The position numbers and the translations under genes are program-made. The notes under the pieces are model-generated. The model was not told the origin of the DNA. It saw only the letters and a program-made list of their open reading frames with translations, and ran no database searches. This document shows positions 22,431-42,882 of a stretch of DNA of 64,000 bases, in pieces (position 1 is the first letter of the stretch; each line of letters opens with the position of its first letter). The stretch lies in assembly GCA_035260845.1 (NCBI GenBank), contig DATFUL010000003.1:75620-139619 (forward strand), read 5' to 3'. The DNA comes from Patescibacteria group bacterium (lineage in GTDB: Bacteria; Patescibacteriota; Microgenomatia; UBA8517).

Positions 22431-24081
<1,651 letters not shown>

Positions 24082-25968: not shown

Positions 25969-27609
25969 TTAATTAGAAACTACGTCAAAATACTCAAATC
26001 CATTCGTACCATAAATCCTTTTAATTATATTTGCGGATTGAGGAATTTCCTCATGAGTGCCAATTATAAGACTGTTTGGATAATTATTTTGAATGGAGGT
26101 AAAATCGATAGGTCCAAAATGGTATTTGTCAAAATCCGATACAGTTGAAAACCCAAAATCATCTCTGCTTGTTAATGTGTGGTGAAATTGAAATTTTTGC
26201 GGAGGGTATTTTTGGTAGAAAAGAAAAAGAATATATGGCTGATCGTATCTATTAGTCACATAAATATCAGAGTATTTTGATTGATCTTGCAAAACATACT
26301 CAACAAGTTCTTTAACCCCATACTGAGAGGAGTAGGGGTAGGTTTTGCTCATATGCATGTAGTACATATTTAGATACCTTGCAAAGTTCCAAATAATTAA
26401 CAGTGCTAAGAATGTTATACCAATAAACTTCCAAATTTTTCTACCATTCAAATAATTTAGGATTGTAGTAAGACCAAAAGCACTAATGACGGTGAGAGGA
26501 ATTACCATATTCTGAGATCTTAAAGCATTTGGTGATTGGAAAGTTAAAGCTGAGGCAATTGGGCCAATTAAGAGCCAAGAAATAATAAATTTCCAACTAT
26601 TATTGAATTTCTTAGCTATAAAGATAAAACCGACTGCTAGAAATAATAAATCAATCAAATACATCTCCCCTGTTTCTGGAACCTTATTCCTCTCGATAGA
26701 ATCTCCGGACATAAATAAGAACTCACCATTAAAATGAGATGTCCAATTGTTTACAAAAAAGAGACCATAATTTACGAATTTATTGTGAAGTATTTCTGCA
26801 AAATAACCATTTACACTAGAATGTTCTCCTCTTTGTTCGTTAATCCTATTTATCGGTCCCTTGTCTGCAAATAGTCCAACTCCGGCTACCCTTGAAAGTG
26901 CACCGCCTGAAAGAAGATCGTGAGTTAATGGCAGTAAAATAACAACCGAGAAGATAGCAAAAATTAAATAGGGCTTAATGTTTTTGAATATCACATTTCT
27001 ATAAATCAGAATTATCGAGAGTCCTAAAAGTGGAATAATCACTCGGACTGCATGGTATGTGTAAAGGGCAGCAACTAAACAAAGTGAACTCAAAACAAGT
27101 TTAGTAACTTTATGTTTAAATTTAATTTCCCTAAATGAATTAAAAAATAAAAGTAAACCAGCTAAAAGAAAAAAAGTGGCGGTATTGACCTCCCAACCAC
27201 CCCTACTAAACTGTAAATGCCAAGGTGAAATCGCAAGAAAAAGTGCTGATATGAGTGCAAATTTGTCATCTTCAAAAAGCTCTTTTACGAGTAGGTAAAT
27301 TAAAAGAACCGAGAGTACACCAAACATTGCACCTGGAATTCTAACTGACCACGAGTTTAATCCAAGTAATTTAACAAATGGAATGTCTAAATAAACATAA
27401 AGTCCTGGCTTATAATCGTTGAACGATTGGAAAGAAATTGGCCAAGAGTTACCATGCTGATCCATTCCAGTCTGAATCAATGAATAAGCATCGTAACCAT
27501 TTGATGCTTCATCAGCATTTAATGCAGGGTATGTATCAAGTTTCCAAAACCTCAAAACAAAAGCCAAAAACACAATTAAAAATAATAGATATTTGTTAAG
27601 TTTATTCAT
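25969..27609 (-). CDS. GT-C ArnT/PMT-like (GT39/GT83-type) membrane glycosyltransferase, family A paralog 1
   Basis: TM1 then LNADEASNGYDAYSLIQTGMDQHGNSWP...FNDYKPGLYVYL. About 11 TM, then a C-terminal soluble domain of about 170 aa. Confidence 0.75.
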   Translation of the reverse strand: MNKLNKYLLFLIVFLAFVLRFWKLDTYPALNADEASNGYDAYSLIQTGMDQHGNSWPISFQSFNDYKPGLYVYLDIPFVKLLGLNSWSVRIPGAMFGVLSVLLIYLLVKELFEDDKFALISALFLAISPWHLQFSRGGWEVNTATFFLLAGLLLFFNSFREIKFKHKVTKLVLSSLCLVAALYTYHAVRVIIPLLGLSIILIYRNVIFKNIKPYLIFAIFSVVILLPLTHDLLSGGALSRVAGVGLFADKGPINRINEQRGEHSSVNGYFAEILHNKFVNYGLFFVNNWTSHFNGEFLFMSGDSIERNKVPETGEMYLIDLLFLAVGFIFIAKKFNNSWKFIISWLLIGPIASALTFQSPNALRSQNMVIPLTVISAFGLTTILNYLNGRKIWKFIGITFLALLIIWNFARYLNMYYMHMSKTYPYSSQYGVKELVEYVLQDQSKYSDIYVTNRYDQPYILFLFYQKYPPQKFQFHHTLTSRDDFGFSTVSDFDKYHFGPIDFTSIQNNYPNSLIIGTHEEIPQSANIIKRIYGTNGFEYFDVVSN

Positions 27610-27618
27610 GGTTAGTCA

Positions 27619-29250
27619 TTATTTAACTTCAACAACCTCAAAAGCAACATCAATGTTATTCAAATATTTAAGTTCATATAGAAATTTATATTTCTCTGGT
27701 CTACTTATGACTTCAGGTGGAATGGTTGGACCGGTTACAACAAGTGTGCCATTTGTAAACTGAAGTGCACTCCAATCAACTCTTTCAAAACGAACATTAT
27801 CAAGTTTTGTTTCAAAACCAACATCCCCTTTATACTTACTGCTGACTAAATTCGCCTGCTTTTGATATTTAGCAGGGTCGTATTTTTGATAGAAAAGGAA
27901 ATAAATATATGGTTGATTAAATGATTGCTCAAATACGATGTCTTTATATTTAGACTCAAGAGGGGTTACATAATCAACCATCTGTTTATAGCCATATCGC
28001 CAATAATTTGAATTATGAGCTGGAAGATGGACAAAATATGAATCTAAAAAATATATAAAACCAAAAATCCAGACGGCTATGAAGGCCAAAATGACGATTT
28101 TATGGTAATTTATCACCTCATATATTCCAAAAGAAATAACAATAACTAAGGGGATGGCGGTAAGCAAGGATCTAACTGCATTTGTCTGGTCTCTTGAAAT
28201 AGCCGCAGAAAAAGGTGATAGGATTAATAATAAAATTACAAACAATGTTCCTTTATTAAGTTTGTTCTTGAAAATTGTAAAAAGCCCAATTGGAAGCAAA
28301 AGCAAGTCCCCTAGTAATAATATTCCTTGATATGGCGAAGTATGAACTGGATTTGCGGTATCTCCATCGAAAAACAAAAAATGACCTGAATAGAAATTAA
28401 ACCACCTACTCATGACCATTCTAAAATAATTTAATTGATCAGAGTGAAATAAATAAAAGTATCCATCGGAGTATGTTTGTATTTCTTCTGGCAATCTTGG
28501 ATATGAAAAAACACTAAAAATAGTTAAGCGCTGTGCTTGTCCGTTAAATAAAGTTAATATTATTGGGATCGAAATAATTACTCCGAGAACAAATGATGTA
28601 ATAAGATAGTTGAGTTTTATTTTCCAAAAGACTTTCCAATTAATTAAGATAAGCAGTAATAAAACAATTGCTGTAGATAGTTTTGCACCTTGATATGCAA
28701 TTAGAGTCAAAGCAAAAAATATTGAACTTAATATAATATATTTATTTTCATCCAATGATTTCAAAAAGAAATAAATCCCAGCTAAGGTTAAAGTAATTGA
28801 AATGTTTGCCTCCCAAGCACCTCTGGAAAAATAAATTAAGTAAGGATTTGTCGCAGCGACAAAAGCACTGATAATAGCTAGCGACTTATAGTTGGCAAAT
28901 AGTTTACGAACAATTAAATAAATTAAATAAATAGACAGTATCCCAAAGATTGCGGAAGGGAGACGGGTAGAAAACTCAGACAAACCAAAAACAGCTACAG
29001 ATGGTACGGCCAAGTAAACATAAAGGCCTGGTTTGTAATCACCAAACGATTTAAAAACTATTGGTAGAGATTTTCCAAACTCATCACGACCCGTTTTTAG
29101 TATCGAATAGGCATTGTATCCCAAAGAAGCCTCATCTGGAGTTAAGCTTGGAGCAATACTACCAAGATGCCAAAGTCTTAAAATGCCGGCTAAAACAAGT
29201 GCAATTAGTAAAAGGCCTTGAGAACTAAATATCTTGTTAATAATTTTCAT
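27619..29250 (-). CDS. GT-C ArnT/PMT-like membrane glycosyltransferase, family A paralog 2
   Basis: LTPDEASLGYNAYSILKTGRDEFGKSLP...FGDYKPGLYVYL. Confidence 0.75.
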   Translation of the reverse strand: MKIINKIFSSQGLLLIALVLAGILRLWHLGSIAPSLTPDEASLGYNAYSILKTGRDEFGKSLPIVFKSFGDYKPGLYVYLAVPSVAVFGLSEFSTRLPSAIFGILSIYLIYLIVRKLFANYKSLAIISAFVAATNPYLIYFSRGAWEANISITLTLAGIYFFLKSLDENKYIILSSIFFALTLIAYQGAKLSTAIVLLLLILINWKVFWKIKLNYLITSFVLGVIISIPIILTLFNGQAQRLTIFSVFSYPRLPEEIQTYSDGYFYLFHSDQLNYFRMVMSRWFNFYSGHFLFFDGDTANPVHTSPYQGILLLGDLLLLPIGLFTIFKNKLNKGTLFVILLLILSPFSAAISRDQTNAVRSLLTAIPLVIVISFGIYEVINYHKIVILAFIAVWIFGFIYFLDSYFVHLPAHNSNYWRYGYKQMVDYVTPLESKYKDIVFEQSFNQPYIYFLFYQKYDPAKYQKQANLVSSKYKGDVGFETKLDNVRFERVDWSALQFTNGTLVVTGPTIPPEVISRPEKYKFLYELKYLNNIDVAFEVVEVK

Positions 29251-29274: not shown

Positions 29275-30918
29275 TTATTCTTGAAAATTGCTATAAATCT
29301 CAAATGCTGATTTTCCATCTAAAAAGTTGACTGCATTAATCTTATTCCATCCTTTTGGATAATTACCAGGGGATGTAATTAATAGGCATCTCATATTTTT
29401 ACAATCTATTTTTACTTTACTTTCCGTGACAAGATCTTTTATTTGCCAGTCATTTACGAAATAAAACTTGTCAAATCTGTCTACCCAATACCAATTTGAT
29501 TGAAAAAAAGTAATCTTACTTGCATCATTTAGATATTTTGATGGATTGTAATATAAATAAAATAGAAAATATTCATGCGGTTCACCATATTTTTTTGTAA
29601 CAATTATCTTGTCATACTCGCTATCGTGCTGTTTTACATAGTCAACAGCTTGTTTGTATCCATATTGCCAACTCCAACTGTAGTTAGTTCTATAAGCAGT
29701 AACATAATTAACGATATAACTTTCGGCAAATATAAATGTAAGAATTGCATATATAGAAACTGTCAAAAACTTGTAATTTTCTTTTACTTTTGATAACAAT
29801 TCAAAAAAACAAATCGAAATTAAGATTTCAGGAATAGGAAGCATGGTTGTAGCCCGAATGACAGCAAAACTTTCGTTTGTTAATGAGGCAGGAATGGGTG
29901 AAAGAATAAGCCATAAAAGCAAAAATCTATAATTTTTGTCTTTTAGTGCCATTGCGATAATAAATATTATTCCTATATAAAAAAATGGCAGGTTTACTGG
30001 GTAAATTAGTCCAAAATTTGGAACACTGAATTGGTACTGAGTGCCACCTTTTATAAACAAAAATTTAGGAGAAAAATAACTAATGTAATTTTTAGAAAAA
30101 TTTTCTATAAAATAAACAGGGCGGTTGTAAATAATCCTCTTAATATTATTAGGAAGTTTTGATGAGTTTCTGGCTTCAATAATTTTATTTACAGCACCCT
30201 GATCAACAAGAAACAGAACATTGCCCCGGGCAGTTGCCCCGGGGTTTATTAAGATATAAGCAGAAAATAATATGAAAATTCCTGCAAAAACATAGATTAC
30301 TTTGCTGCTTATTTCTTTTCCGTAAATAAGAAGTGTTCCAATCAAAAGTAGTGGAGAAAATATTCGTGTTGTATGGTAAGAAAAAAGAGTCAGAAAGAGT
30401 GAAATAAAAGAAAAAGAAAGAAAGTGTTTATTCTTTTCTCTGTTCACAAAGAGTGCAGCAGCTGTAATTAAAAAGAAAACCGATAAATTTGATTGGAGTA
30501 CAAACCTTGATGTAAATACATACCATGGGCTAATTGCAGTCAAGAAGCTGGAAAATAAGCTGATGTCTCGTCTCTTTGTAATTCCAAACGCTAAAAAGTA
30601 AACAGAAATTATTGTTAAAACCCCAAGGATTGCGTGTGGAAAACGAATAGAAAATTCTGTTAAACCAAATAGCGCGATAAAAGGTATTGTTAAATAAAGA
30701 TTTAGTGTGGTTGGATAATCCCCATAAGCTCTAAAATTAAAAAAAGGCAACCTTTGACCCCATTGATCCATCCCCGTCTTAAGAATTGAATAAGCATTGT
30801 AACCATGACTAACTTCATCCCAATTAAGTGCAGGCGGATTCCAAGATAAAAAGGTGAACCTTAAGACGGCTCCCAAAACAATAATTAAAATTAAGTATGT
30901 TAAGTTCTTTCTGCCCAT
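29275..30918 (-). CDS. GT-C ArnT/PMT-like membrane glycosyltransferase, family A paralog 3
   Basis: LNWDEVSHGYNAYSILKTGMDQWGQRLP with the same architecture. Confidence 0.75.
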   Translation of the reverse strand: MGRKNLTYLILIIVLGAVLRFTFLSWNPPALNWDEVSHGYNAYSILKTGMDQWGQRLPFFNFRAYGDYPTTLNLYLTIPFIALFGLTEFSIRFPHAILGVLTIISVYFLAFGITKRRDISLFSSFLTAISPWYVFTSRFVLQSNLSVFFLITAAALFVNREKNKHFLSFSFISLFLTLFSYHTTRIFSPLLLIGTLLIYGKEISSKVIYVFAGIFILFSAYILINPGATARGNVLFLVDQGAVNKIIEARNSSKLPNNIKRIIYNRPVYFIENFSKNYISYFSPKFLFIKGGTQYQFSVPNFGLIYPVNLPFFYIGIIFIIAMALKDKNYRFLLLWLILSPIPASLTNESFAVIRATTMLPIPEILISICFFELLSKVKENYKFLTVSIYAILTFIFAESYIVNYVTAYRTNYSWSWQYGYKQAVDYVKQHDSEYDKIIVTKKYGEPHEYFLFYLYYNPSKYLNDASKITFFQSNWYWVDRFDKFYFVNDWQIKDLVTESKVKIDCKNMRCLLITSPGNYPKGWNKINAVNFLDGKSAFEIYSNFQE

Positions 30919-32369
30919 ATTTTCTTTTTTAAAACATAAATTGCAGCAACAATTATTGTACTCAAACTAATTATGTTACCGATTTTCCTAATAGGAGTAT
31001 CTTTAAAACTGGCGCCACTGGAGGGTATCAATCCATTTTCATCAGGAGTATTGTTCCAACCTGGGAAATAATTAATGTACTTTCCGTTCCCTGGTAAATT
31101 TGGTATTTTGTGTCCGAATTGCGGCCAATAATCTCCAATCGAAGCGGTTCTTTGGCGAGTCCATTCTGCACCAGTTGTAAAATATGAGTCACTTACTTTG
31201 TACCAAATATCTCCACGGAAAAATGATAAGTTAAAAACAATTGCCAATATCGCAACAATTAAACTAACTAAAACTTTTTGTTTTTCAAAAAATTGAAGGA
31301 TTGCACCACTTGATAACGCAAAACAAAATGTAGCTACTCCTAAAAACCTCCAAGGAAACTGAATATATGCCATGCCAGAGATATGAGTCCAAAGGAATGT
31401 TGATTTATTGTGAGTTAAGAAAATATAAAATATGCCAACTATAAACAAAGTCAGAAAAGTCATGTTTTTTGATATTTTATTCCTAATAACAATTGCTATG
31501 AGAATAACGAGTGGCAACAACCACTGAATAGTTCCAATCGAAAGGCTTAGTCCATCCCCAATACCCCATGTGGAACCGCCATAACCCCAAAATCTTGAAA
31601 TAAATATTTGATAAAGTGTTACAAAATGAGCCCTGAAATCAAAATATCCAGTAATTGTACTACCCAAATCAACATATTTAGACTCAAAAATAACCGGTAA
31701 AATATAAAAAGCAGAAATTAAAAATGAAACTACACCTGCCGGAATACTTTTCCAAAATCTTCTATAAATAATCCATATAATAAGTATCGGCAAAAACATA
31801 ACGAGAGATAAATTGTGAGTTAAGATTAAACCAGAAAGTAATATTGAAAACCAAATATATGATTTTTTCTCGATCGATAAAAGTATTAGTGGGAAAAAAA
31901 TAAACGAGAAGGCTTCGGGAAGGGCTCCACGTACCCAAACATCAACTGCACGGTATGGTGCATACAAATAGATTATTGAAGAGATAAAAGCAGAATAATT
32001 ATTTTTCCATATCTCTTTTGCTAAGAAAAACATGGAAACAGAAGAACCAAAAAGTGAAAGTATAAAAAGAAACTTAAGTGAGTTAATTATACTTCCACCA
32101 ACTAAATGATAAATTTCACCGATTGCGTATGGAAGTTGACCATAGAAATTAAAAAGAGGCTCTCCATAACCCAAACCTGCGTCTGGTGACCAACGGCAAG
32201 GAATTTGTAAATTTTGTATACATTTATCAAACTCATAAAGTCTAAAAAAATGAAAGTCCTGCATTGAATAAATTCCGGGTTGAAGCATCTTATAAAAAGT
32301 TGGGATAGACAATAGAAGAATTAAGACAACGAAAATATTTTTACTCAGAAAATTAGTTAGCTTTTGCAT
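30900..32369 (-). CDS. Polytopic membrane protein, family C (possibly YfhO/PTPS-related-like GT-C candidate), paralog 1
   Basis: TM1 then MQDFHFFRLYEFDKCIQNLQIPCRWSPDAGLGYGEPLFNFYGQLPY. Nearly the same motif occurs in 52406..54139. Confidence 0.55.
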   Translation of the reverse strand: MQKLTNFLSKNIFVVLILLLSIPTFYKMLQPGIYSMQDFHFFRLYEFDKCIQNLQIPCRWSPDAGLGYGEPLFNFYGQLPYAIGEIYHLVGGSIINSLKFLFILSLFGSSVSMFFLAKEIWKNNYSAFISSIIYLYAPYRAVDVWVRGALPEAFSFIFFPLILLSIEKKSYIWFSILLSGLILTHNLSLVMFLPILIIWIIYRRFWKSIPAGVVSFLISAFYILPVIFESKYVDLGSTITGYFDFRAHFVTLYQIFISRFWGYGGSTWGIGDGLSLSIGTIQWLLPLVILIAIVIRNKISKNMTFLTLFIVGIFYIFLTHNKSTFLWTHISGMAYIQFPWRFLGVATFCFALSSGAILQFFEKQKVLVSLIVAILAIVFNLSFFRGDIWYKVSDSYFTTGAEWTRQRTASIGDYWPQFGHKIPNLPGNGKYINYFPGWNNTPDENGLIPSSGASFKDTPIRKIGNIISLSTIIVAAIYVLKKKIWAERT

Positions 32370-34044
32370 AGGCTTTATTTAGGGGGTTAACTACATATAT
32401 AGATGGTGTTCCGTCCGGAAAATAAAATGTTTTAATGGCAACGATATTTTTAGGAAAATCGTCTGGGTGCCCAACCAATAGTGTATTTGGAAGATTCACA
32501 TCCGTCTTCCAATCAAAAGATCTAATTGTGTAGTTCGCAAGTGAATAACTTGGTAACTGGTCTAACCAAGAAAGACCAGATTTATCAAAATTCCAATTCT
32601 TTGTATTCTTTTGATAGTCGCTCGGTGGTAATTTGCTTGAAAATGCAATAAATATCTGGGGTTCAGACAAACTACGGCTCAAAATTACATTTCTTCCATT
32701 TGAGTTTTCATGAAGATAATTAGCCATATCTAAATTTCCATACAACATTTGACCATTTACGTTGTTTGGTTGAGGCTTAAAATAGTCACTTTTAAAGATA
32801 AATATTTGATAAATCGAGAATATACAAAAAACTAGTGTCGGCAAAACACTAAATTTTTTGCCTCGAAGAAATAAAGTCCATCCAATAAATCCAAATCCTT
32901 CAAGAATCTGAAGAACGGGAAGCATACCCTCTGCTCTATTGCCAGAATATCCAGTACCAGAAGCTAGCGCAGCAGGGAGTGGAGCAATTAGAAGCCAAAC
33001 AATTATTGGCAATAGAACCAGTCTTGATTTTTTGTTTAATAAAACTGGAATTAAACCAAATAAAAGTATTCCCTCAAATATATAAATTGTACCTACGTTT
33101 GCAACCATACCGTAATAAAATTCTGCTGCACCTTTTGTAAATAGAAATCTTGGAGAAAAATATTGAATATAATTAGTTGTAAAACGGTTTGCCACAACTT
33201 GATATTTATTATGCAATATTTTTGAAACGATTGGGTTTTTACCCATTTGGATAAGTTTTATTTTTGCTTCAGCACCTTCCTCAAGTGCACCTTGGGTAAT
33301 ACTTCTCTCAGATATCCTTGCCCCACCCCCTAGTGTAAAAGAGTAAGCAATTGCGATACAAAATATTATAAAAATAACTAGCGATAAAAATAATTTTCTA
33401 AACCCGATTCGTTTGAGATCTTTATAGAAAATCACAAAAAGTCCAATTATAACCAAAGGTGTAATCAGTTTCGCAGAATGATATGTAAACAGACTTATTC
33501 CAAAAAAAATCGCTGACCAAATAAAGAATTTTGAGTGTTTAAGTCCTTTTAGAAAGAAATAAATTCCTGCCGGAAGAAAGAGGGTTATTAAATTAGCTTC
33601 AAATGCACCCCTACTCATCATAACAGCCCATGGGTTAACAGCAAGGAGAAAAGCTGTAACTATTGCAGGACTAAAAGTATCATTAATTCCAAGATTATTT
33701 TTATATTTTTCAAATAATTCTTTTGTAAGAAGATATACAAATAATACAGCCAAAGTGCCTACAAGCACATTTGGAAAACGGGTAGCAAATACATTTAGAC
33801 CAAAGATTGCTATGAATGGAACATCTAAATACCCATACACTGGAGACTTATAGTCTCCGAATGACTTTAATACTATTGGCAATAAATTACCCCATTGATC
33901 GCGACCAGTATGGAGAATCGAATAAGCATCGTAGCCAAACGATGCCTCGTCAGCATTAAAACCAACGGGAAAGTTTGTAACTGAGGCCACACGAATCAAA
34001 AAAGATATTGCCAATACAATGCAAATTAATAACCTTTTCATCAC
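32353..34044 (-). CDS. GT-C ArnT/PMT-like membrane glycosyltransferase, family A paralog 4
   Basis: FNADEASFGYDAYSILHTGRDQWGNLLP...FGDYKSPVYGYL. Confidence 0.75.
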   Translation of the reverse strand: MMKRLLICIVLAISFLIRVASVTNFPVGFNADEASFGYDAYSILHTGRDQWGNLLPIVLKSFGDYKSPVYGYLDVPFIAIFGLNVFATRFPNVLVGTLAVLFVYLLTKELFEKYKNNLGINDTFSPAIVTAFLLAVNPWAVMMSRGAFEANLITLFLPAGIYFFLKGLKHSKFFIWSAIFFGISLFTYHSAKLITPLVIIGLFVIFYKDLKRIGFRKLFLSLVIFIIFCIAIAYSFTLGGGARISERSITQGALEEGAEAKIKLIQMGKNPIVSKILHNKYQVVANRFTTNYIQYFSPRFLFTKGAAEFYYGMVANVGTIYIFEGILLFGLIPVLLNKKSRLVLLPIIVWLLIAPLPAALASGTGYSGNRAEGMLPVLQILEGFGFIGWTLFLRGKKFSVLPTLVFCIFSIYQIFIFKSDYFKPQPNNVNGQMLYGNLDMANYLHENSNGRNVILSRSLSEPQIFIAFSSKLPPSDYQKNTKNWNFDKSGLSWLDQLPSYSLANYTIRSFDWKTDVNLPNTLLVGHPDDFPKNIVAIKTFYFPDGTPSIYVVNPLNKAYAKAN

Positions 34045-34089: not shown

Positions 34090-34674
34090 ATGAATTATTT
34101 TAAAAAAATAGTAATTGTATTTTGTATTATTCTTTGGCCTCTAAATTTATTATTAAACTTCAAAGGCAACACCTCATTTGAGACGATTTTTACCAATGAT
34201 TACCAAGGAGAACAGTTAATTCTTAGAAACATACACCTCTATCCGACTATTGCTCTCGCAAGGGTTTTTCAAAACAAACCGAGAATTTATATTTATAAGT
34301 TTTTTAATAATTTGTTTATATTAACTGATCCTAATAATTATTTTTTCGGACTTCATCCGGAACCAATTCCGGGACAAAACAATATTTTCAAATATCAATT
34401 CGTCGCAATTGTATTTTTTGCGTATGGCATATTTAGTATTTCAAAGTACAAATATAAAAATATAATTCTATTCACTTTTATTCCTTTTGTATTATTTCTA
34501 TCAATTTTAAAAAACTTCTACGGATTAGACCTAATTTTGTGGATCCCAATTTCTTTGACAATAGGCAACGGTGTAACACAGATGATGATTGATAATAAAA
34601 AATTGTTCACAGTTACATCAATACTGCTTATCGTATTTGCAGTTCCTGAATTAATAAGGAGTTTTATAAGGTAA
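34090..34674 (+). CDS. Hypothetical small membrane protein of 194 aa
   Basis: ORF with 4-5 hydrophobic segments, divergent from 32353..34044. No family was recognised. Confidence 0.4.
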   Translation: MNYFKKIVIVFCIILWPLNLLLNFKGNTSFETIFTNDYQGEQLILRNIHLYPTIALARVFQNKPRIYIYKFFNNLFILTDPNNYFFGLHPEPIPGQNNIFKYQFVAIVFFAYGIFSISKYKYKNIILFTFIPFVLFLSILKNFYGLDLILWIPISLTIGNGVTQMMIDNKKLFTVTSILLIVFAVPELIRSFIR

Positions 34675-36444: not shown

Positions 36445-38079
36445 AGGAAACGGAATTGATTTAATTAGTTTTAGACCCTCTGGTGTTTTATCCGGGTGCA
36501 ATATCAAATTTTCCCCATCTTCACTAGCGTTGGCTAAGTATAAAGTTTTTGAGTCAATATATTTTCCGAGTCCGTATATTTTAACATTTGGGTCAGGTGA
36601 CCCAAAATAAAACTTACCTGTGTGGGATATCTTTCCAAAACCTGAAACTTCTATGTCGTTTCCGATTGGAAATTCTTTCTGCCAAATAGTTGGATTGTAT
36701 TCATAGTGTCCAGCGAAGAATATCCAAGCAGGTTCACCACTCATAGAGATAATTACACGGTCGTAACTTGAATCAATAGATTTAACTTCACTAATTGCCT
36801 GCCCCCAACCATAATGCCACCAATGTTCACTATTTATTGGATAAACAAGATAATATTCATGAAAGTAAAAAACCATGGACAGAATGTAAAGCGATGATGC
36901 GACAACTATAAAAAATGTTTTATATTTTTGAGAAATAATTTTGTAAATTGAAAGCCACCCAAAGGATATAAAAAATATTAAAACAGGCAAAATTAATATT
37001 AAACGTGTGGCGTGTGTGCCACCGCCAATTGTTAGTGCCGAGGGAAACGCTCCAACCAAAAGCCAAAAAGACATTAACAATTTAGTTTTAGTATTAATAT
37101 TCTTTTCAAAAAAGAAAAATGCCAAACCGAGAAGCAATGGAACTATCTCTATTAAATACAATTCACCAGTTCCGATAGATTGACGTAAATTTGCATCTCC
37201 TTTCAAAAACAAGAAGTCTGTAGAAAATGATCCAAAATAATTATTCAAAATTTCGCTACCCCAATATGTGTATTTATTATAAATAAATTTATTGTTATCT
37301 ATCTTTCTACCTTCTCCAACTGTTTGTTCCATTTTTGAATCATTAAAAACACTAATGTCGTTTATTCTTTGCGTTCCACCTCCAAAAACAGTACTGGTTG
37401 CAATTGGAACTCCAATAATTAACCCAGCAATTAAGACAAAAACAAGTTCGCGCTTAGCCATTCTTAATATTTTTTTCCTGTAAAGAACAAATAAGAATAT
37501 TAAAAGAAGGGGTGTAAATAATTTTGCGGTTGAATACACCCAAGGCATAAGGACTAGTAATGCAACAGAAAGCCAAAGCCTTTTTGAAGTATCTAAAGAT
37601 TTAATAAATAAATAAAGCCCCAGGATCAGCAAAAATAGCATTTCGGTTACTTCAAAACCAGCTCTTGAGTATTGAATTAACCATGGTGAAACCGCTAATA
37701 AAAATGCAGAGACCAAACTAAGATTTTTGTTTTTTGTTAATTGATTTACGAGTAAATACATTGCATATACAATCAAGGTTCCAAAAATCGCAGCAGGTAA
37801 TCTAACACCTAATGGCGTAATACCAAAGATGGCCACAGTTGGAACAGCAGAGTATAAATAAAGCGGAGTTCGCCATTCAGCAAGTGAATGAAAATGAACT
37901 GGCATAAAATTTCCCATATAGTCTCTACCTGTATGAAGAATTGAATATGCCTGGTAGCCCAGATCGAGTTCGTCGCCAAAAAGTGATGGTGGATTAACAG
38001 ACAACCTATATAAACGGAGAATTGAAGCAAGAAGAATTATGGCAATAAGTAAAAATTTAGCGGTTAAAATCTTTCTCAT
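36403..38079 (-). CDS. GT-C ArnT/PMT-like membrane glycosyltransferase, family A paralog 6
   Basis: LFGDELDLGYQAYSILHTGRDYMGNFMP...LAEWRTPLYLYS. Its 3' end overlaps 34693..36444 convergently by 42 nt. Confidence 0.7.
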   Translation of the reverse strand: MRKILTAKFLLIAIILLASILRLYRLSVNPPSLFGDELDLGYQAYSILHTGRDYMGNFMPVHFHSLAEWRTPLYLYSAVPTVAIFGITPLGVRLPAAIFGTLIVYAMYLLVNQLTKNKNLSLVSAFLLAVSPWLIQYSRAGFEVTEMLFLLILGLYLFIKSLDTSKRLWLSVALLVLMPWVYSTAKLFTPLLLIFLFVLYRKKILRMAKRELVFVLIAGLIIGVPIATSTVFGGGTQRINDISVFNDSKMEQTVGEGRKIDNNKFIYNKYTYWGSEILNNYFGSFSTDFLFLKGDANLRQSIGTGELYLIEIVPLLLGLAFFFFEKNINTKTKLLMSFWLLVGAFPSALTIGGGTHATRLILILPVLIFFISFGWLSIYKIISQKYKTFFIVVASSLYILSMVFYFHEYYLVYPINSEHWWHYGWGQAISEVKSIDSSYDRVIISMSGEPAWIFFAGHYEYNPTIWQKEFPIGNDIEVSGFGKISHTGKFYFGSPDPNVKIYGLGKYIDSKTLYLANASEDGENLILHPDKTPEGLKLIKSIPFPSGEPAFYLFSGIK

Positions 38080-38113
38080 TACGTTTAGTTTAACATTTTT
38101 AAAATAAATTTGG

Positions 38114-39448
38114 TTGTATACTACAAATGTGATTTTATTTGTACCTATATTTCTATTTTTAGCCGAGTTGTTTTGGCAAATATATGTTAACTACCCTCCC
38201 ACCTCTGAGCAACTTAATTTTGGTGTTACAAACTATATATTACTTTGGTCATTAAGAATTATTAGTTTTATATTTATTATTGGCACATCATTCTTCCTGT
38301 CAAAAAAGCTAAGAACAAGAATAAAATCTTATTATTTTATTCTGATTCTAATATGCCCATGCATATCCTTGATTTGGATGTCGTACCCCTTAGATGCCTT
38401 AAAATTATTTATAATTTCAGGGATATTTTATTTTTTAACTAGAAAAAACCATAACTATTATTTCGCAGTTATAATAACCACCATCGCCATATTAAGTCTA
38501 AATCTCGGATTTTTTAATCAGAATCCAAATATTTTAAAAATCGTCTCGTTGAAACAACCCCAAAGTGAAGTTAATTTTCGTTTTCTTATTGAGGATAATT
38601 TAAATCCTAATATATCAGTTCCTAAGACTTTAAAAAGATTGGTTTACAATAAAATATTTTTTGCCTTAAGAGATTCTGTAAACGAATCATTAACCTTTTT
38701 TGATTTTGAGACGCTTTTTTTTCAAGAAATACACCCATTGGGACAAAAGGCCTTTGTAATATTCTTTTGGCCTGAAATTGTAATTTTTTGTCTCAGCCTT
38801 TGGCTGGTTATGACTAAAAAGATCTCCTCAAAAAAGGAATTTTTATCAATTTTATTGATATCTTTTATTTATTTTATAACTACCAACGTGTCGACTGAGA
38901 GAAGGTTGATCTTTAGCCTATTCCCGCTTTCTATTATTATGGCGGAATGCATAAACCAGTTTTTGAAAAGCCGTTCCAAAAAAACAAAGTATGGGATTAT
39001 ATTTCTAATTTTATTAACTTCTTATGGATGGCTAACTAATTATTATGATAGATTTGTAAGGCCTAATTTTTGGCTTGATAATCGTCCTATTGCATATAAT
39101 TTTTTTCTATCTTATTTAAAAACACAAACTTTAAACTATAGTCAAATTATTGTATCTGAAAACCTCAGTGAATCTAAAAAATACTGTCTCTTTTACCTCA
39201 AAGATTGTAGTTTATTAAAAACTGACAATTTTGATTTAAGTAAAAATAGACCAAATAGGGGGGTTTTATATATTGGTTTCACAGGTAACTTCCTTGGCCA
39301 AAACTCGGAAAATTCATTCCCACAGGATGCAAATGAAGAAATAAAGAAAAGAGAATTAGAAATACTCAAAAAAACCCATATTCTTGATAATATTGCAAAC
39401 AAGTACGGACAGGAACTTTTTATAGTACAAACTAAAGATAAACAATGA
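38114..39448 (+). CDS. Uncharacterised polytopic membrane protein of 444 aa
   Basis: Hydrophobic N-terminal two-thirds and a soluble C-terminal third. It overlaps the next gene by 4 nt (ATGA). Confidence 0.45.
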   Translation: MYTTNVILFVPIFLFLAELFWQIYVNYPPTSEQLNFGVTNYILLWSLRIISFIFIIGTSFFLSKKLRTRIKSYYFILILICPCISLIWMSYPLDALKLFIISGIFYFLTRKNHNYYFAVIITTIAILSLNLGFFNQNPNILKIVSLKQPQSEVNFRFLIEDNLNPNISVPKTLKRLVYNKIFFALRDSVNESLTFFDFETLFFQEIHPLGQKAFVIFFWPEIVIFCLSLWLVMTKKISSKKEFLSILLISFIYFITTNVSTERRLIFSLFPLSIIMAECINQFLKSRSKKTKYGIIFLILLTSYGWLTNYYDRFVRPNFWLDNRPIAYNFFLSYLKTQTLNYSQIIVSENLSESKKYCLFYLKDCSLLKTDNFDLSKNRPNRGVLYIGFTGNFLGQNSENSFPQDANEEIKKRELEILKKTHILDNIANKYGQELFIVQTKDKQ

Positions 39449-41121
39449 AAAGGCTGATATTTATAATATTAATAATTATTTGGATAGTTGGACTGCTACT
39501 TACACGACTTGTTGGCCTTGAAAAATCACCCATCTCAGTTGGTTTTGATGAGGCCTCTCTGGGATACAATGCATATAGCCTATTATTAACAGGGAAAGAT
39601 GAATACGGAACGAGTTACCCATTAAGCCTTAGATCTTTTAATGACTTTAAACCGGCACTCTACTCATACCTGGATATTCCATTTATTCATTTTTTTGGCT
39701 TAAACCAGACAACAGTTAGAACCCCTTCAGCAATTTTTGGAACATTGTCCTTGGTGTTTCTACTTTTAATTTTTATGAAGCTATCAAAAAGGTCTACCCT
39801 TGTTTGTGTCATTATTTTAACCATAATCTCATTCTTTCCATGGCGTCTTCACTTCTCGCGCGTAGCATTTGAGGCAAACATATCAATGGCTTTCTTTACC
39901 GGAGTAATATGGTGTTTATTAAATTTTAAGAAGAACTTATTTTACAAAGTGAGTACAATCCTTTTTTCAGTACTTGCGATATATAGTTATCATTCGGCTA
40001 GACTTTCTATTCCGATTCTACTTCTTCTGTTTTTCATTGATCCCTTCTCTTTTAATTTTAAGGTGTTTTTGAAACATCCTTTTGAAATAATTAAAAAATT
40101 ATGGCCTCTTTTTGTTGTAATAATACTTTACCTGCCGCTTTTTCTGGAATTTCATACCTCACTCCTACTCACAAGGTTTAGCCAGACGAATGTCTTTAGT
40201 CACTATTATCCGTTTACTCCTCATGAGCTAATTTATACGTCAAATGTTTGGTTAAATTCGCTCGGAAATCCCCTATACTATCTCGGTGGTATTTTAGTGG
40301 GACATATTACAGCCTATTTTTCACCAAAAAACCTTTCACTATTAATTTATCCAGGTGTAATAAAATCAGCTCAAGCAATAAGTGAAAGTGGAATGTTGGG
40401 TTTTTTTGGAGGACTCATGTTTGCGATAGGGCTTGTTTCTACATTTAGAGAATTTATACAGAACAAAGAAAAAAGAATTATAATTTATTGGATTTTGTCA
40501 GGTATCATTCCGGCCGCTGTTACATGGGAATGGTTTTACCCCCTAAGATCATTGAATATATACCCCTCTGTTGATCTAATTGCAGGTTTTGGTTTGTTAA
40601 CTGTTGCTAATTACTTTTCAAGAAATAGGAATATGGTGCTCAAAAATGTGTATTTTTGTATATTTTTATTAATTGCTTTTGGAACATCGTTTTATAACAT
40701 AATAAACGAGTTTAATTACGGAGCTTGGAATACCAGTGGTGAGTTTCAGCCTGGAGGTTTTAAAGAAGGTGTGCCTATATTGATATCTCTTAAGAGTGGT
40801 TATAAAACAATATATTTAGATACTAATCAGGCACAGAGTTACGAGATTTTTTGGTTTTATATGAAATATCCGCCCAAGAATATACAGAAAATTGCTTATA
40901 GAAGAAATGTGCCAGGAATTGAAGGTCCTCCTAGTATAAACTTTGATAATTTTGTGTATAAAAAATTTGATTGGCCAAATGATAAATATAAAAGTGATTT
41001 TATATACTGGACTACATCAGAAGTGAAAGAAGATGAAATCAAATCAATCAAGGGTGCAAAACTTTACAAAATATTAAACCCTGAAGGAAATTGGATTGCT
41101 TCAATAATCACCAAAAAATAA
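39445..41121 (+). CDS. GT-C ArnT/PMT-like membrane glycosyltransferase, family A paralog 7
   Basis: VGFDEASLGYNAYSLLLTGKDEYGTSYP...FNDFKPALYSYL. Confidence 0.75.
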   Translation: MKRLIFIILIIIWIVGLLLTRLVGLEKSPISVGFDEASLGYNAYSLLLTGKDEYGTSYPLSLRSFNDFKPALYSYLDIPFIHFFGLNQTTVRTPSAIFGTLSLVFLLLIFMKLSKRSTLVCVIILTIISFFPWRLHFSRVAFEANISMAFFTGVIWCLLNFKKNLFYKVSTILFSVLAIYSYHSARLSIPILLLLFFIDPFSFNFKVFLKHPFEIIKKLWPLFVVIILYLPLFLEFHTSLLLTRFSQTNVFSHYYPFTPHELIYTSNVWLNSLGNPLYYLGGILVGHITAYFSPKNLSLLIYPGVIKSAQAISESGMLGFFGGLMFAIGLVSTFREFIQNKEKRIIIYWILSGIIPAAVTWEWFYPLRSLNIYPSVDLIAGFGLLTVANYFSRNRNMVLKNVYFCIFLLIAFGTSFYNIINEFNYGAWNTSGEFQPGGFKEGVPILISLKSGYKTIYLDTNQAQSYEIFWFYMKYPPKNIQKIAYRRNVPGIEGPPSINFDNFVYKKFDWPNDKYKSDFIYWTTSEVKEDEIKSIKGAKLYKILNPEGNWIASIITKK

Positions 41122-41157
41122 TTGTATAAAAAGCCTAAATCTGCTATTGTTTCGTTA

Positions 41158-42882
41158 ATGAAAATTGCATTAAAAATTATAAAAAGACCTCTTTTTTGGA
41201 TATTTTTACTAACTTTATTTTTAAGGTTATATCGACTTGGGGAATTTCCATATGGATTCCACATAGACGAAGCCAAAATAGCCTGGAATTCTTTGTCGAT
41301 TCTAAAAACAGGTCATGACGATCATGGAAATCTATTTTCACTTTATTACAATTCTTTTGGTGACTACAGGCCTACAGGACTTTTTTATCTTACCATTCCT
41401 TCGATAGCTATTTTCGGGAGATCAATTTTTGCTACAAGACTCCCAGTTGCTCTTTTTGGAGCTTTAATGATATTTCCAATATATTTTCTAATTAATTTGC
41501 TAGATACAAACAAAGGAAAATCGACAACAAACGCTAAGGCCGGGCTTTTAGGGGCGCTCCTCATGGCGATATCTCCTTGGCAAATTGACTTGAGCAGGGC
41601 TACAAACGAAGTAGTTGTTTCTACTTTCTTCGCTCTGTTTTCTTTATTTTTCCTTATAAAATTGATTAAATCAAAAAAAGAAGTATTCGGAGTGTTGTCG
41701 GTAATAACTATTATTTTTAGCTATTTCTTTTATCATGCAATAAGATTTTTAGCTCCTCCAATTCTACTTATTACGTTTTTGTATTATATCAAGGAGATTA
41801 AAAGAAAAGAGGTAAAAAAATGGATCTACATTTGCCTTATCGTTGCGTTTGTTTTATCTATTTTCTTTAGTACAACAAAGGAAGGTTTGGCAAGGTTTAA
41901 TCAGGTTTCTATATTTAGCGGCGTTGACACAACTTATCAGATTGAAAGGATTAGGGGTGAAAATTCAAAGAGAAATTTATTGACCATATTTTTCGATAAC
42001 AAATATGTAATTTATCTTAAAACTTTTATGGATCAATATAGTAGTTATTTTGCCGGTGATTTTTTAATTGGCCCGTCAGGTAGGCCATACCGATTTGCAA
42101 CACCAGGTTCCGGACTTATTACTTACGTTGAAGCTATTCTCTTAATATCTGGTGGAATTATAATCGTAAAAGGCAAAAAGAACTTGCTACCGCTTTTTTT
42201 ACTATTAGTTACCCCTTTACCTGCAGCTATAACCACCGAGGATGTCCCAAACTTGAGTCGCGCATTTTTAATGCTCCCATTTTTAATTATTATTGAGGCT
42301 TATGGTTTTGAAGCAATTCTCCTGATCTCCAAAAAATACAAAAAACTCATTACAACTACTATTTTTTCGTTATTGACCCTGAATTTTATCTATTTCTCAT
42401 ATATGTATATGGTTCATTCGATAAATCACCGTCCATATCTGAAAAATTACTTTGTCGATAGCCCAACTTATCGAAACATGGGTGCCAAAGAGCTTTCACT
42501 TAAACTTGATACACTCAAACAAAAATATGATAAAGTAATTATCACAAATTTTCCCGACAACCTATATCCATGGTACGCTTTTTTCACCAACAAAAATCCG
42601 TCTGACTTTAATAAAACTTATAGCACCCAGACGATGGAACGAGATTACGAAAATATAATATTCTCACAAGAAAAGTGTCCATCTGATAACAATTTAATTA
42701 AGTATAACAAGCAAAATATTCTCATGGTAGATTCATGGGAATGTGAGTATCAAAGTCAGATTGATCAGGGTTTACCCCTTAAGGTTGTAGGAAGAATCAC
42801 TAGACCCGATGGTACTGAAGCTTATATCTTACTCGAAAGAGACAGGTCAAAGCCTTTATTTCTTAATGGAGTTTATTATTAA
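41158..42882 (+). CDS. GT-C ArnT/PMT-like membrane glycosyltransferase, family A paralog 8. The ATG at 41158 is preferred over the TTG at 41122.
   Basis: FHIDEAKIAWNSLSILKTGHDDHGNLFS...FGDYRPTGLFYL. MKIALKIIKRPLFWIF is a typical N-terminus for this family. Confidence 0.7.
   Translation: MKIALKIIKRPLFWIFLLTLFLRLYRLGEFPYGFHIDEAKIAWNSLSILKTGHDDHGNLFSLYYNSFGDYRPTGLFYLTIPSIAIFGRSIFATRLPVALFGALMIFPIYFLINLLDTNKGKSTTNAKAGLLGALLMAISPWQIDLSRATNEVVVSTFFALFSLFFLIKLIKSKKEVFGVLSVITIIFSYFFYHAIRFLAPPILLITFLYYIKEIKRKEVKKWIYICLIVAFVLSIFFSTTKEGLARFNQVSIFSGVDTTYQIERIRGENSKRNLLTIFFDNKYVIYLKTFMDQYSSYFAGDFLIGPSGRPYRFATPGSGLITYVEAILLISGGIIIVKGKKNLLPLFLLLVTPLPAAITTEDVPNLSRAFLMLPFLIIIEAYGFEAILLISKKYKKLITTTIFSLLTLNFIYFSYMYMVHSINHRPYLKNYFVDSPTYRNMGAKELSLKLDTLKQKYDKVIITNFPDNLYPWYAFFTNKNPSDFNKTYSTQTMERDYENIIFSQEKCPSDNNLIKYNKQNILMVDSWECEYQSQIDQGLPLKVVGRITRPDGTEAYILLERDRSKPLFLNGVYY

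What the first reader, a model, noticed from the sequence alone, without database searches (positions are those of the whole stretch)
25969..42882. Eight tandem paralogs of one ArnT/PMT-like GT-C family with variable C-terminal domains
Eight genes at 25969, 27619, 29275, 32353, 34693, 36403, 39445 and 41158 share a strongly conserved N-terminal loop (DEAS-GY-AYS-L-TG-D--G ... F-DYKP-LY-YL) and the same TM architecture. Their soluble C-terminal domains of about 150-200 aa differ.

This looks like a tandem-duplication expansion with substrate or acceptor-specificity diversification. It is comparable to PMT expansions but far larger than is typical for bacteria. Orientation flips within the array (minus, plus, minus, plus) suggest local inversions after duplication.
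Basis: seen in the sequence. Interest (0 to 1): 0.75.

Follow-up and report, generated by a model that had tools for sequence, protein, structure and literature searches.

The report
Ancient eight-gene membrane glycosyltransferase array
Eight neighbouring genes in a tiny-genome (Patescibacteria/CPR) bacterium encode old, individually conserved copies of one membrane sugar-transferase family, probably each adding a different sugar or linkage to the cell surface: a real and tidy example of a known enzyme kind, not a new mechanism.

Summary
Eight intact genes (25969-42882) form one discrete GT-C family: 25-35% pairwise identity over nearly full length, with 23 invariant columns including a positional Asp-Glu in loop 1. 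An AlphaFold model (pLDDT 89) matches the AglB/PglB/STT3/ArnT/PMT fold, and Pfam PMT_2 passes in 7 of 8.

The C-terminal domains are not different modules. They are homologous (invariant Gly and Pro, same element order) and share the usual GT-C periplasmic alpha/beta fold. They are the most diverged region between paralogs (20% identity against 47% in loop 1) but are conserved within orthologs (58%).

The expansion is ancient, not recent:
- Every paralog has positional orthologs at 41-75% identity in related Woesebacteria-type genomes.
- All eight orthogroups are monophyletic (100/100).
- Gene order and strand flips are shared.
- There are no DNA-level repeats.

Two N-terminally truncated relatives lacking the catalytic loop (34090, 38114) each sit upstream of a full-length member, and both pairs are conserved.

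The surrounding 64 kb is a glycan island with at least eight further GT-C genes and candidate polyprenyl-phosphate-sugar synthases.

Most likely function: non-redundant extracytoplasmic glycosyltransferases acting on a surface glycan. This is a new member of a known kind, of moderate interest.

The parts
25969..27609 (-). Paralog 1, 546 aa full-length GT-C (PMT_2 + PMT Pfam). Modelled structure.
   Evidence: AF2 pLDDT 89.3, pTM 0.90. GT-C fold matches. Orthologs at 58-75% identity.
27340..27537 (-). Coding stretch for extracytoplasmic loop 1 of paralog 1 (residues 25-90), holding the invariant D33-E34 and the DEAS-GY-AYS-TG-D-G...DYKP motif.
   Evidence: Invariant columns. The only DNA-level similarity between paralogs (70-75% over 71 nt) falls here (D1).
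25972..26352 (-). C-terminal extracytoplasmic alpha/beta domain of paralog 1 (residues 420-546).
   Evidence: Same element order as the 34693 domain model.
27619..29250 (-). Paralog 2, 543 aa.
   Evidence: Orthogroup monophyletic 100/100.
29275..30918 (-). Paralog 3, 547 aa.
30900..32369 (-). Interposed gene of a different GT-C type: 489 aa, 9 TM, no C-terminal domain. It is 33% identical to 52406-54139, which passes Pfam PTPS_related and YfhO. Its position inside the array is conserved in other genomes.
32353..34044 (-). Paralog 4, 563 aa (GTG start).
34090..34674 (+). Truncated relative, 194 aa, 4 TM. Its ortholog profile matches the family's long-loop motif plus the last four TM helices. 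It has no loop-1 catalytic motif and no C-terminal domain. It always lies just upstream of the 34693 ortholog.
   Evidence: hhalign Prob 93.5%, E 2.2e-7. Single sequence not significant. Synteny.
34693..36444 (+). Paralog 5, 583 aa. C-terminal domain modelled separately (residues 431-583 = 35983-36441).
36403..38079 (-). Paralog 6, 558 aa. Its 3' end overlaps that of paralog 5 by 42 nt (convergent).
38114..39448 (+). Truncated relative, 444 aa. It aligns to family columns 153-477 and lacks TM1 and the loop-1 DE motif. It overlaps the start of paralog 7 by 4 nt, and the pair is conserved in two other genomes.
   Evidence: hhalign Prob 97.7%, E 1.9e-12 with a 3-sequence profile..
39445..41121 (+). 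Paralog 7, 558 aa. It fails Pfam thresholds but scores 443 bits against the family HMM and keeps the DE motif.
   Evidence: Orthologs at 62-73% identity, and 44-46% in Shapirobacteria.
41158..42882 (+). Paralog 8, 574 aa from ATG 41158 (the ORF opens at TTG 41122).
   Evidence: Orthologs in L003, L005 and L013.
22077..23080 (-). Candidate donor-making pair: a GT2 whose best NCBIfam match is the polyprenyl-phospho-GalNAc synthase PpgS (22412-23080), plus a small DUF2304 membrane protein (22077-22430).
   Evidence: 108.8 bits, full profile length, but below the equivalog cut-off of 370. DUF2304 58.8 bits against cut-off 25.5. Same pair in L001 and L003.
63085..63978 (-). GT2 fused to a GtrA/DPMS transmembrane domain (the GT2 part is cut near the window end). 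Candidate polyprenyl-phosphate-sugar synthase or flippase-type component.
   Evidence: GtrA_DPMS_TM 60.2 bits. (weak PgfS and ArnC matches).
49638..51131 (-). Wzx-type polysaccharide flippase (Polysacc_synt_3), marking the surrounding island as a surface-glycan locus.
   Evidence: 170.8 bits.

Best explanation
The eight genes encode non-redundant, catalytically competent GT-C (GT-C_A fold, PMT_2-type) glycosyltransferases of a Patescibacteria (Woesebacteria-like) bacterium.

Shown here:
- They are one family.
- All keep the Asp-Glu at the start of the first extracytoplasmic loop.
- The model has about 11 TM helices, a long outward loop and a C-terminal alpha/beta domain like other GT-C enzymes.
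- Each paralog is an old, separately conserved orthogroup kept in a shared gene order.

Inferred:
- Each enzyme works on the outer face of the membrane.
- Each takes a sugar from a polyprenyl-phosphate-sugar made by the GT2 enzymes encoded in the same island.
- Each adds that sugar at its own position or linkage on a cell-surface glycan, either a polysaccharide or a glycan on a surface protein. Together they act like a set of branching and elongating enzymes, as the mycobacterial Emb/Aft/Mpt GT-Cs do.
- Specificity differences lie in loop 1, the long loop and the C-terminal domain together.
- The two truncated relatives (34090, 38114) are most likely non-catalytic partners of the full-length enzyme encoded just downstream.
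For: - Family and motif.
- Pfam PMT_2 above threshold in 7 of 8, and PMT in 3 of 8.
- AF2 model pLDDT 89.3. Foldseek PDB hits are AglB, PglB, STT3, ArnT (TM 0.58/0.59), Pmt4, ALG9/12, Emb and AftD.
- The C-domain is a standard GT-C periplasmic domain and always lies at the C-terminus of such proteins.
- One-to-one positional orthologs at 41-75% identity, against 25-35% between paralogs. Orthogroups are monophyletic 100/100.
- Versus the nearest ortholog, dN is 0.17-0.33 with synonymous sites saturated, and the C-domain dN is similar to the rest. This indicates purifying selection on each copy.
- Group-specific conserved positions occur in all outward-facing regions.
- Context: six GT2s (672, 17986 C-terminal half, 22412, 56178, 60943, 63085) best match polyprenyl-phosphate-sugar synthases such as AglJ, PgfS, PpgS and ArnC. 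There is a DUF2304 partner and a GtrA/DPMS TM domain. The island also holds a Wzx-type flippase, GT4s, sugar aminotransferase/isomerase/epimerase genes and methyltransferases.
- The three-component logic (lipid-phosphate-sugar synthase, flippase, GT-C) is established for bacterial glycans (PMC11127046).
Against: - No donor, acceptor or activity is shown.
- All matches of the GT2s to named synthases are below the curated cut-offs.
- No initiating phosphoglycosyl transferase and no acceptor protein was recognised in the window.
- Sequence profiles find no solved structure, and fold matches have only 11-15% identity. Active-site residues beyond the DE pair are therefore inferred.
- Not every related genome keeps all eight. 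The 34090/34693 pair is absent from this position in L001/L013 and in L003, and 41122 is absent in L014. The enzymes are therefore not an obligatory complete set.
- The partner role of the truncated genes rests on adjacency and profile similarity only.
Confidence: 0.6

Rival explanations
1. They are protein O-glycosyl (mannosyl) transferases in the strict PMT sense. Each glycosylates Ser/Thr of a different set of secreted or surface proteins, such as pilins, S-layer proteins or adhesins, rather than building a polysaccharide.
For: - Pfam PMT (PF02366) passes its threshold in 3 of 8, and PMT_2 in 7 of 8.
- The invariant DE pair in loop 1 is the hallmark of PMTs (PMT knowledge is from the literature, not tested here).
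- Pmt4 and Pmt1-Pmt2 are among the fold hits.
- NCBI names relatives 'glycosyltransferase family 39'.
- GT2s give weak matches to PgfS of the streptococcal protein-glycosylation system.
Against: - There are no PMT_4TMC or MIR domain hits.
- PMT fold matches cover only about 225-290 columns, with TM about 0.3. ArnT, OST and ALG matches cover the whole protein.
- The island looks like a polysaccharide locus, with a Wzx-type flippase, GT4s and many sugar-modifying genes.
- No Ser/Thr-rich target gene lies in the window.
Confidence: 0.2
2. They modify a membrane lipid or lipid-anchored polymer (ArnT-like or YfhO-like decoration of a glycolipid or teichoic-acid-like polymer), with the paralogs adding different decorations.
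For: - JGI names relatives 'ArnT-like'.
- A YfhO/PTPS_related-type GT-C sits inside the array.
Against: - The NCBIfam ArnT equivalog scores 25 bits against a cut-off of 567.
- Identity to ArnT is 11%.
- Patescibacteria are generally held to lack lipid A (general knowledge, not tested here).
- Eight conserved enzymes is many for simple decorations.
Confidence: 0.12
3. The copies are a recent, redundant or phase-variable tandem amplification serving antigenic variation, with one or a few used at a time.
For: - The genes are arranged as neighbours with strand flips.
- Array content differs somewhat between genomes.
Against: - Paralogs are only 25-35% identical.
- No long DNA repeats or conversion tracts were found.
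- Every copy has orthologs at 41-75% identity in the same position in other genomes, and forms its own clade at 100/100.
- Strand pattern is shared.
- All copies are intact and keep the DE motif.
Confidence: 0.03

Closest known systems
ArnT (undecaprenyl-phosphate-L-Ara4N:lipid A transferase, GT83; PDB 5EZM/5F15)
   Same: - GT-C_A fold of similar size, with a multi-TM core plus a C-terminal periplasmic alpha/beta domain.
- Presumably also uses a lipid-phosphate-sugar donor.
   Different: - 11% identity.
- The ArnT equivalog model is not met (25 against 567 bits).
- The model shows about 11 TM helices, whereas ArnT is reported to have 13 (my recollection).
- A lipid A acceptor is implausible in this lineage.
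- Eight paralogs rather than one gene.
Protein O-mannosyltransferases (PMT, GT39; Pmt1-Pmt2 6P25, Pmt4 9I5K) and bacterial PMT homologs
   Same: - Pfam PMT_2 and PMT hits above threshold.
- Invariant Asp-Glu at the start of loop 1.
- PMTs also occur as paralog sets that pair up (literature).
   Different: - No MIR domain and no PMT_4TMC domain.
- Only the N-terminal half superposes well.
- Has a C-terminal alpha/beta domain that PMTs lack.
- A protein acceptor is not shown.
Three-component extracytoplasmic glycosylation systems (GtrA/GtrB/GtrC of Shigella and Salmonella; Citrobacter ORF15/14/12, GT136)
   Same: - Same logic: a GT2-type polyprenyl-phosphate-sugar synthase, a flippase-type membrane protein and a GT-C that decorates a glycan outside the membrane (PMC11127046).
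- Candidate synthases and a GtrA/DPMS TM domain are in the window.
   Different: - Those systems have one GT-C per system and are often mobile or serotype-specific. Here eight or more conserved GT-Cs sit in a core chromosomal island.
- No CBM-type extra domain as in GT136 ORF12.
- No stand-alone GtrA gene was found next to the array.
Mycobacterial arabinosyl/mannosyl GT-Cs (embC-embA-embB tandem paralogs, AftA-D, Mpt)
   Same: - Several GT-C enzymes, including tandem paralogs, build and branch one wall polymer from lipid-phosphate-sugar donors.
- The PpgS-like GT2 + DUF2304 pair resembles the pairing I recall for M. tuberculosis PpgS (Rv3631) and the adjacent small membrane protein Rv3632. That recollection was not checked here.
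   Different: - Emb and AftD are about 1,000-1,400 aa (target lengths) and carry carbohydrate-binding modules, as reported in PMC11127046. The proteins here are about 550 aa with a small alpha/beta domain.
- Only remote similarity, 10-14% identity.

Membership tests
GT-C superfamily, GT-C_A fold class | Multi-pass membrane core with the GT-C_A helix arrangement | tested here: met
   AF2 model pLDDT 89.3, pTM 0.90. Foldseek prob 1.00 to AglB, PglB, STT3, ArnT, Pmt4, ALG9/12, DPY19, Emb and AftD.
GT-C superfamily, GT-C_A fold class | Conserved acidic residue(s) in the first extracytoplasmic loop after TM1 | tested here: met
   D33 and E34 are invariant in all 8 paralogs and in 51 family members. 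The model places them at the start of the helix following TM1.
GT-C superfamily, GT-C_A fold class | Uses a polyprenyl-phosphate-linked sugar donor on the outer face of the membrane | not testable with these tools
   Only context is available: GT2s resembling polyprenyl-phosphate-sugar synthases, all below cut-offs, and a GtrA/DPMS TM domain.
Pfam PMT_2 (PF13231) | Score at or above the gathering threshold (26.1 bits) | tested here: met
   31.4-51.2 bits in 7 of 8. Protein 39445 gives no Pfam hit but scores 443 bits against the HMM of the eight plus orthologs.
Protein O-mannosyltransferase (PMT, GT39) in the strict sense | Pfam PMT (PF02366) N-terminal domain above threshold (22.7 bits) | tested here: inconclusive
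   Met in 3 of 8 (43.1, 40.3 and 26.3 bits). No hit in the other five.
Protein O-mannosyltransferase (PMT, GT39) in the strict sense | MIR domain in the luminal loop and PMT_4TMC C-terminal module | tested here: not met
   Neither family appears in any of the eight Pfam scans at E <= 0.01. The C-terminus is an alpha/beta domain instead. Bacterial PMTs also lack MIR, so this excludes only the eukaryotic architecture.
Protein O-mannosyltransferase (PMT, GT39) in the strict sense | Transfers mannose to Ser/Thr of proteins | not testable with these tools
   No assay is possible, and no candidate acceptor gene lies in the window.
ArnT (GT83) | Match to the NCBIfam equivalog PRK13279 at its cut-off (567 bits) | tested here: not met
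   25.1 bits for paralog 1. No hit for the other paralogs scanned.
ArnT (GT83) | Overall architecture: TM core plus C-terminal periplasmic alpha/beta domain | tested here: met
Gtr-type three-component glycan modification system | Adjacent polyprenyl-phosphate-sugar synthase (GtrB-like GT2) and GtrA-like flippase serving the GT-C | tested here: inconclusive
   Candidate GT2s lie at 672, 17986 (C-terminal half), 22412, 56178, 60943 and 63085, and a GtrA_DPMS_TM domain lies at 63085-63978. None is next to the array, and all named-family scores are below cut-offs. The genes flanking the array are other GT2 types (25123, 42891).
Emb/Aft-type arabinosyltransferases | Large C-terminal carbohydrate-binding module(s) | tested here: not met

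The most novel reading that the evidence does not exclude
Woesebacteria-type Patescibacteria, with genomes of roughly 0.6-1 Mb, keep a dedicated extracytoplasmic glycan assembly line. It would comprise eight specialised GT-C enzymes plus two conserved catalytic-loop-less GT-C relatives that pair with the neighbouring full-length enzyme, as pseudo-enzyme subunits of heteromeric transferases. It would build an unusually complex surface glycan needed for their attached lifestyle. A conserved 'truncated GT-C + full GT-C' gene pair has not, to my knowledge, been described.
Probability: 0.25. Interest if true: 0.6.

Novelty: new member of a known kind. Interest (0 to 1): 0.4.

Why it matters
Patescibacteria have minimal genomes, yet nearly all of this 64-kb window is glycan machinery. 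The window is roughly a twelfth of a genome the size of the 810,692-bp relative. It includes 16 full-length GT-C genes, eight of them from one family that has been kept copy by copy across related genomes.

That degree of retention in a streamlined genome argues that a complex surface glycan is central to how these uncultivated, probably host-attached cells live. It also gives concrete candidates for biochemical work: eight enzymes, candidate donor synthases and two odd truncated partners.

It does not reveal a new mechanism. The enzymes fit the established GT-C, lipid-linked-donor paradigm.

Tried and rejected
1. Synonymous sites are saturated even against the closest ortholog: dS was not computable for 3 of 4 paralog pairs, and about 2.2 for the fourth. 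Only dN could be compared. Between paralogs it is hopeless.
2. A sequence-profile search of the PDB with the eight-sequence alignment found no hit at E <= 1. Only fold comparison worked.
3. An exact look-up of paralog 1 found it not on record. The source was found through paralog 5 instead.
4. Literature searches for Patescibacteria/CPR/Woesebacteria together with GT39, PMT_2, ArnT or GT-C found nothing specific. One Microgenomates genome paper merely counts 29 glycosyltransferase genes. A Patescibacteria review does not mention glycans.
5. Looking up names or taxonomy for ten distant carriers of the C-domain gave no names.
6. The sigma-70 promoter and terminator scan of the array was no better than shuffles.
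7. A sister relationship of the two 'truncated + full' pairs, which would imply duplication of a two-gene unit, is not supported. The 34693+39445 clade appears in 37/100 bootstraps. The 34090 and 38114 families match each other only at Prob 76%, or 8.7% with a single sequence.
8. Recent gene conversion or amplification is rejected: only 56-71-nt stretches at 66-77% identity, over motif-coding DNA.
9. Pfam at E <= 1 gave nothing useful for ten no-Pfam sequences scanned (34090 and its L005 ortholog, 38114, 30900, 10403, 12213, 13858, 16275, 47981, 51124). The only hits were a sub-threshold PMT_2 match for 13858 and a chance-level OCIA match for 47981.
Full report
**What is in the sequence**

The region 25969-42882 holds eleven tightly packed ORFs. 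Eight of them encode 543-586-aa proteins that hit each other in all-vs-all BLASTP at 25-35% identity. E-values run from 1e-17 to 1e-85, usually over more than 450 residues. The eight are:

| Paralog | Coordinates | Strand |
|---|---|---|
| 1 | 25969-27609 | - |
| 2 | 27619-29250 | - |
| 3 | 29275-30918 | - |
| 4 | 32353-34044 | - |
| 5 | 34693-36444 | + |
| 6 | 36403-38079 | - |
| 7 | 39445-41121 | + |
| 8 | 41122/41158-42882 | + |

An HMM built from the eight plus their orthologs scores them at 443-664 bits over its whole length. The next best protein in the window (59423-60961) scores 52 bits. The eight are therefore a discrete family, not merely 'some GT-C proteins'.

It also matches the N-termini of the other paralogs.

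**The motif**

The eight-way alignment has 23 invariant columns. Twelve of them lie in the first loop: D33, E34, S43, T47, G48, D50, G53, Y73, P77, G83, R90 and P92 (numbering of the 25969 protein).

D33 and E34 remain invariant in a 51-sequence alignment that includes orthologs from other genomes. The motif is positional, not compositional.

**The fold**

Pfam PMT_2 passes its gathering score in 7 of 8, and PMT passes in 3 of 8. Paralog 7 (39445) has no Pfam hit.

An AlphaFold2 model of the 25969 protein is confident (pLDDT 89.3, pTM 0.90). Its features are:
- about 11 transmembrane helices;
- a helix-containing loop after TM1;
- a long loop at residues 236-305;
- a C-terminal alpha/beta domain.

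Foldseek against the PDB returns only GT-C enzymes at E <= 1e-3: AglB, PglB, STT3, ArnT, Pmt4, ALG9/ALG12 and Pmt1-Pmt2. DPY19, EmbA/B/C and AftD follow at E 1.6e-3 to 1.6e-2. Identity is 10-19%. ArnT gives the best reciprocal TM-score, 0.58/0.59.

A sequence profile alone finds nothing in the PDB. NCBIfam gives only sub-threshold matches: Agl23, ArnT at 25 against 567 bits, and LA_3751/2. No characterised close relative exists.

**The C-terminal domain**

It is 127-154 aa, not 150-200. It aligns across all eight with an invariant Gly and Pro.

A separate model of the domain from paralog 5 is very confident (pLDDT 95.1). Its order of helices and strands matches the domain in the paralog 1 model, apart from one short inserted helix and a C-terminal helix.

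A profile of the eight domains was searched against 1.84 billion representative proteins. It finds 2,226 proteins at E <= 1e-3 and 715 at E <= 1e-10. In all 150 listed, the domain ends at or within about 25 residues of the C-terminus. Where the protein is full length (513-634 aa), the domain starts around residue 400-505.

So it is an integral part of this GT-C family, never a shuffled module.

**How diverged is each region?**

| Region (25969 numbering) | Paralog identity | Window vs ortholog identity |
|---|---|---|
| Loop 1 | 0.47 | 0.78 |
| TM core | 0.30 | 0.55 |
| Long loop | 0.23 | 0.59 |
| C-terminal TM half | 0.23 | 0.50 |
| C-terminal domain | 0.20 | 0.58 |

The C-domain has the largest ortholog/paralog ratio (2.9). 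That is what specialisation after duplication predicts.

However, positions conserved within orthogroups but different between them make up 4-9% of every region. These include loop 1 (31, 40, 61, 64, 67) and the long loop and its edge (305-320). The C-domain is thus not the sole seat of divergence.

Versus the closest ortholog, dN of the C-domain is similar to that of the rest of the protein, and dS is saturated. Each copy is under purifying selection, and a real dN/dS is not obtainable.

**Origin and age**

Database relatives are named 'glycosyltransferase family 39 protein [Patescibacteria group bacterium]', 'Candidatus Woesebacteria' and 'Candidatus Shapirobacteria'. Paralog 5 is 100% identical to a protein on a 608,867-bp contig and on a JGI metagenome contig.

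Fourteen related loci were fetched. In them each window paralog has a positional ortholog at 41-75% identity. The second-best window hit of those orthologs is always another paralog at about 30%.

NJ trees with 100 bootstraps give 100/100 for each of the eight orthogroups. No node joining orthogroups exceeds 41/100.

Gene order is shared in L005 and, in part, in L003, L008, L011, L013 and L014. What is shared includes:
- the interposed non-family gene 30900;
- the small gene 34090;
- the strand pattern.

There are no DNA repeats beyond 56-71-nt stretches of 66-77% identity over the motif-coding DNA.

The duplications and any inversions therefore predate the divergence of these genomes. For the 39445 orthogroup, relatives named Shapirobacteria at 44-46% identity group with it in the NJ tree. 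This suggests that at least this copy is older than the Woesebacteria-Shapirobacteria split.

Content is not frozen:
- L001/L013 carry a YfhO-type gene and an unknown 508-aa gene in place of the 34090/34693 pair.
- L003 lacks the 34090/34693 pair at this position: its 36403 and 32353 orthologs are adjacent.
- L014 lacks the 41122 ortholog.
- L006, L009 and L011 carry further family members that are not orthologs of any window copy.

**Two truncated relatives**

*38114-39448 (444 aa).* It has orthologs at 49-60% identity. Each of them overlaps the start of the 39445 ortholog by 1-4 nt. A three-sequence profile matches family columns 153-477 at Prob 97.7%, E 1.9e-12. It lacks TM1 and the DE loop.

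*34090-34674 (194 aa).* It always lies just upstream of the 34693 ortholog. Its eight-sequence profile matches the family's long-loop motif and last four TM helices at Prob 93.5%, E 2.2e-7. A single-sequence comparison was not significant.

Both are conserved genes, not debris. I infer that they are non-catalytic partners. This is not shown.

**Context**

The whole window is a glycan island.

*Further GT-C-type genes:*
- 1960 (PMT_2)
- 19881 (hhalign 96.8%)
- 30900 and 52406 (YfhO/PTPS_related type)
- 43783 (hhalign 96.2%)
- 54163, 56930 and 59423 (PMT_2)

That makes 16 full-length GT-C genes in 64 kb. Several more unassigned multi-TM proteins share the 'TM core + about 150-aa tail' layout.

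*Candidate donor synthases.* Six GT2s best match polyprenyl-phosphate-sugar synthases, all below the curated cut-offs:
- 22412 has an adjacent DUF2304 gene.
- 63085 carries a GtrA/DPMS TM domain.

*Other glycan genes*:
- a Wzx-type flippase;
- GT4s;
- DegT and FdtA sugar-amination genes;
- an epimerase;
- many methyltransferases.

**Mechanism proposed**

By analogy with established three-component and mycobacterial systems (PMC11127046), the steps would be:
1. Cytoplasmic GT2s load sugars onto a polyprenyl phosphate.
2. The lipid-linked sugar is flipped across the membrane.
3. Each GT-C transfers it, through the loop-1 Asp-Glu site, to its own position on a surface glycan.

Separate retention of each paralog argues that they are not interchangeable.

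Whether the acceptor is a polysaccharide, a protein-linked glycan, protein Ser/Thr directly, or a lipid-anchored polymer cannot be decided here. I favour a glycan polymer because of the Wzx/GT4/sugar-modification context.

**Novelty**

The enzyme kind and its logic are known, and the genes are already annotated generically in public records. I found no description of this family, of its conserved array, or of the truncated partner genes in the searchable literature.

I rate it a new member of a known kind, of moderate interest. The main value is as evidence of heavy, conserved investment in surface glycans by a minimal-genome lineage, and as a defined target set for biochemistry.

Noticed in passing
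window 34090-34674 (+) and 38114-39448 (+): Two conserved genes are N-terminally truncated relatives of the GT-C family and lack the catalytic loop. Each lies directly upstream of, and on the same strand as, a full-length member (34693 and 39445). Both pairs recur in other genomes. The window copy of 34090 lacks about 80 aa (two TM helices) present in most orthologs.
   Followed up: yes
window 1-64000: Almost the entire window is glycan machinery. It holds 16 full-length GT-C-type genes (the eight plus 1960, 19881, 30900, 43783, 52406, 54163, 56930, 59423). It also holds at least 10 GT2s, 3 GT4s, at least 6 methyltransferases and a Wzx-type flippase. Several unassigned multi-TM proteins (10403, 12213, 13858, 16275, 47981, 51124) have no Pfam match.
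   Followed up: partly
window 22077-23080 (-): A GT2 whose best match is polyprenyl-phospho-GalNAc synthase PpgS (108.8 bits, below cut-off) is followed by a DUF2304 small membrane protein. As I recall, M. tuberculosis PpgS (Rv3631) has a similar small membrane partner (Rv3632). The next genes are another GT2 (21308) and a GT-C-like protein (19881).
   Followed up: partly
window 54163-58468 (-): A compact module of GT-C (56930), GT2 with PgfS/ArnC-like best matches (56178), a 140-aa DUF1761 membrane protein (55743) and a GT-C (54163). The DUF1761 protein sits where a lipid-sugar flippase would be expected in a three-component system.
   Followed up: no
window 63085-63978 (-): A GT2 fused to a GtrA/DPMS transmembrane domain. 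The listed ORF begins with only the C-terminal part of the GT2 domain (profile positions 79-162 of 168), so the start codon chosen may be internal and the true start upstream.
   Followed up: no
window 3581-5261 (-): A DegT-type aminotransferase and an FdtA-type isomerase lie side by side, suggesting synthesis of a 3-amino-3,6-dideoxyhexose. Several methyltransferases are nearby (1374, 7059, 8838, 9530).
   Followed up: no
window 17986-19224 (+): A single ORF appears to fuse a methyltransferase-like N-terminal part (weak, 22 bits) to a GT2 domain whose best match is AglJ-type dolichyl-phosphate glycosyltransferases. In L003 the ortholog is 363 aa.
   Followed up: no
window 36403-36444: The 3' ends of the convergent genes 34693-36444 (+) and 36403-38079 (-) overlap by 42 nt. 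The divergent gaps 34045-34089 and 38080-38113 are only 45 and 34 nt, so promoters for both directions must lie largely within coding DNA.
   Followed up: no
loci L005-L010: Public record titles call these MAGs 'uncultured Gammaproteobacteria' or 'Pseudomonadales'. Yet they are syntenic with the window and with a Candidatus Woesebacteria contig (L011), and one is an 810,692-bp 'chromosome'. The taxonomic labels look like placeholders or errors.
   Followed up: no
window 58440-59426 (-): A DHH/DHHA1 phosphoesterase (NrnA/RecJ-like) sits between two GT-C genes, overlapping both. It is the only gene in the window with no obvious glycan role.
   Followed up: no
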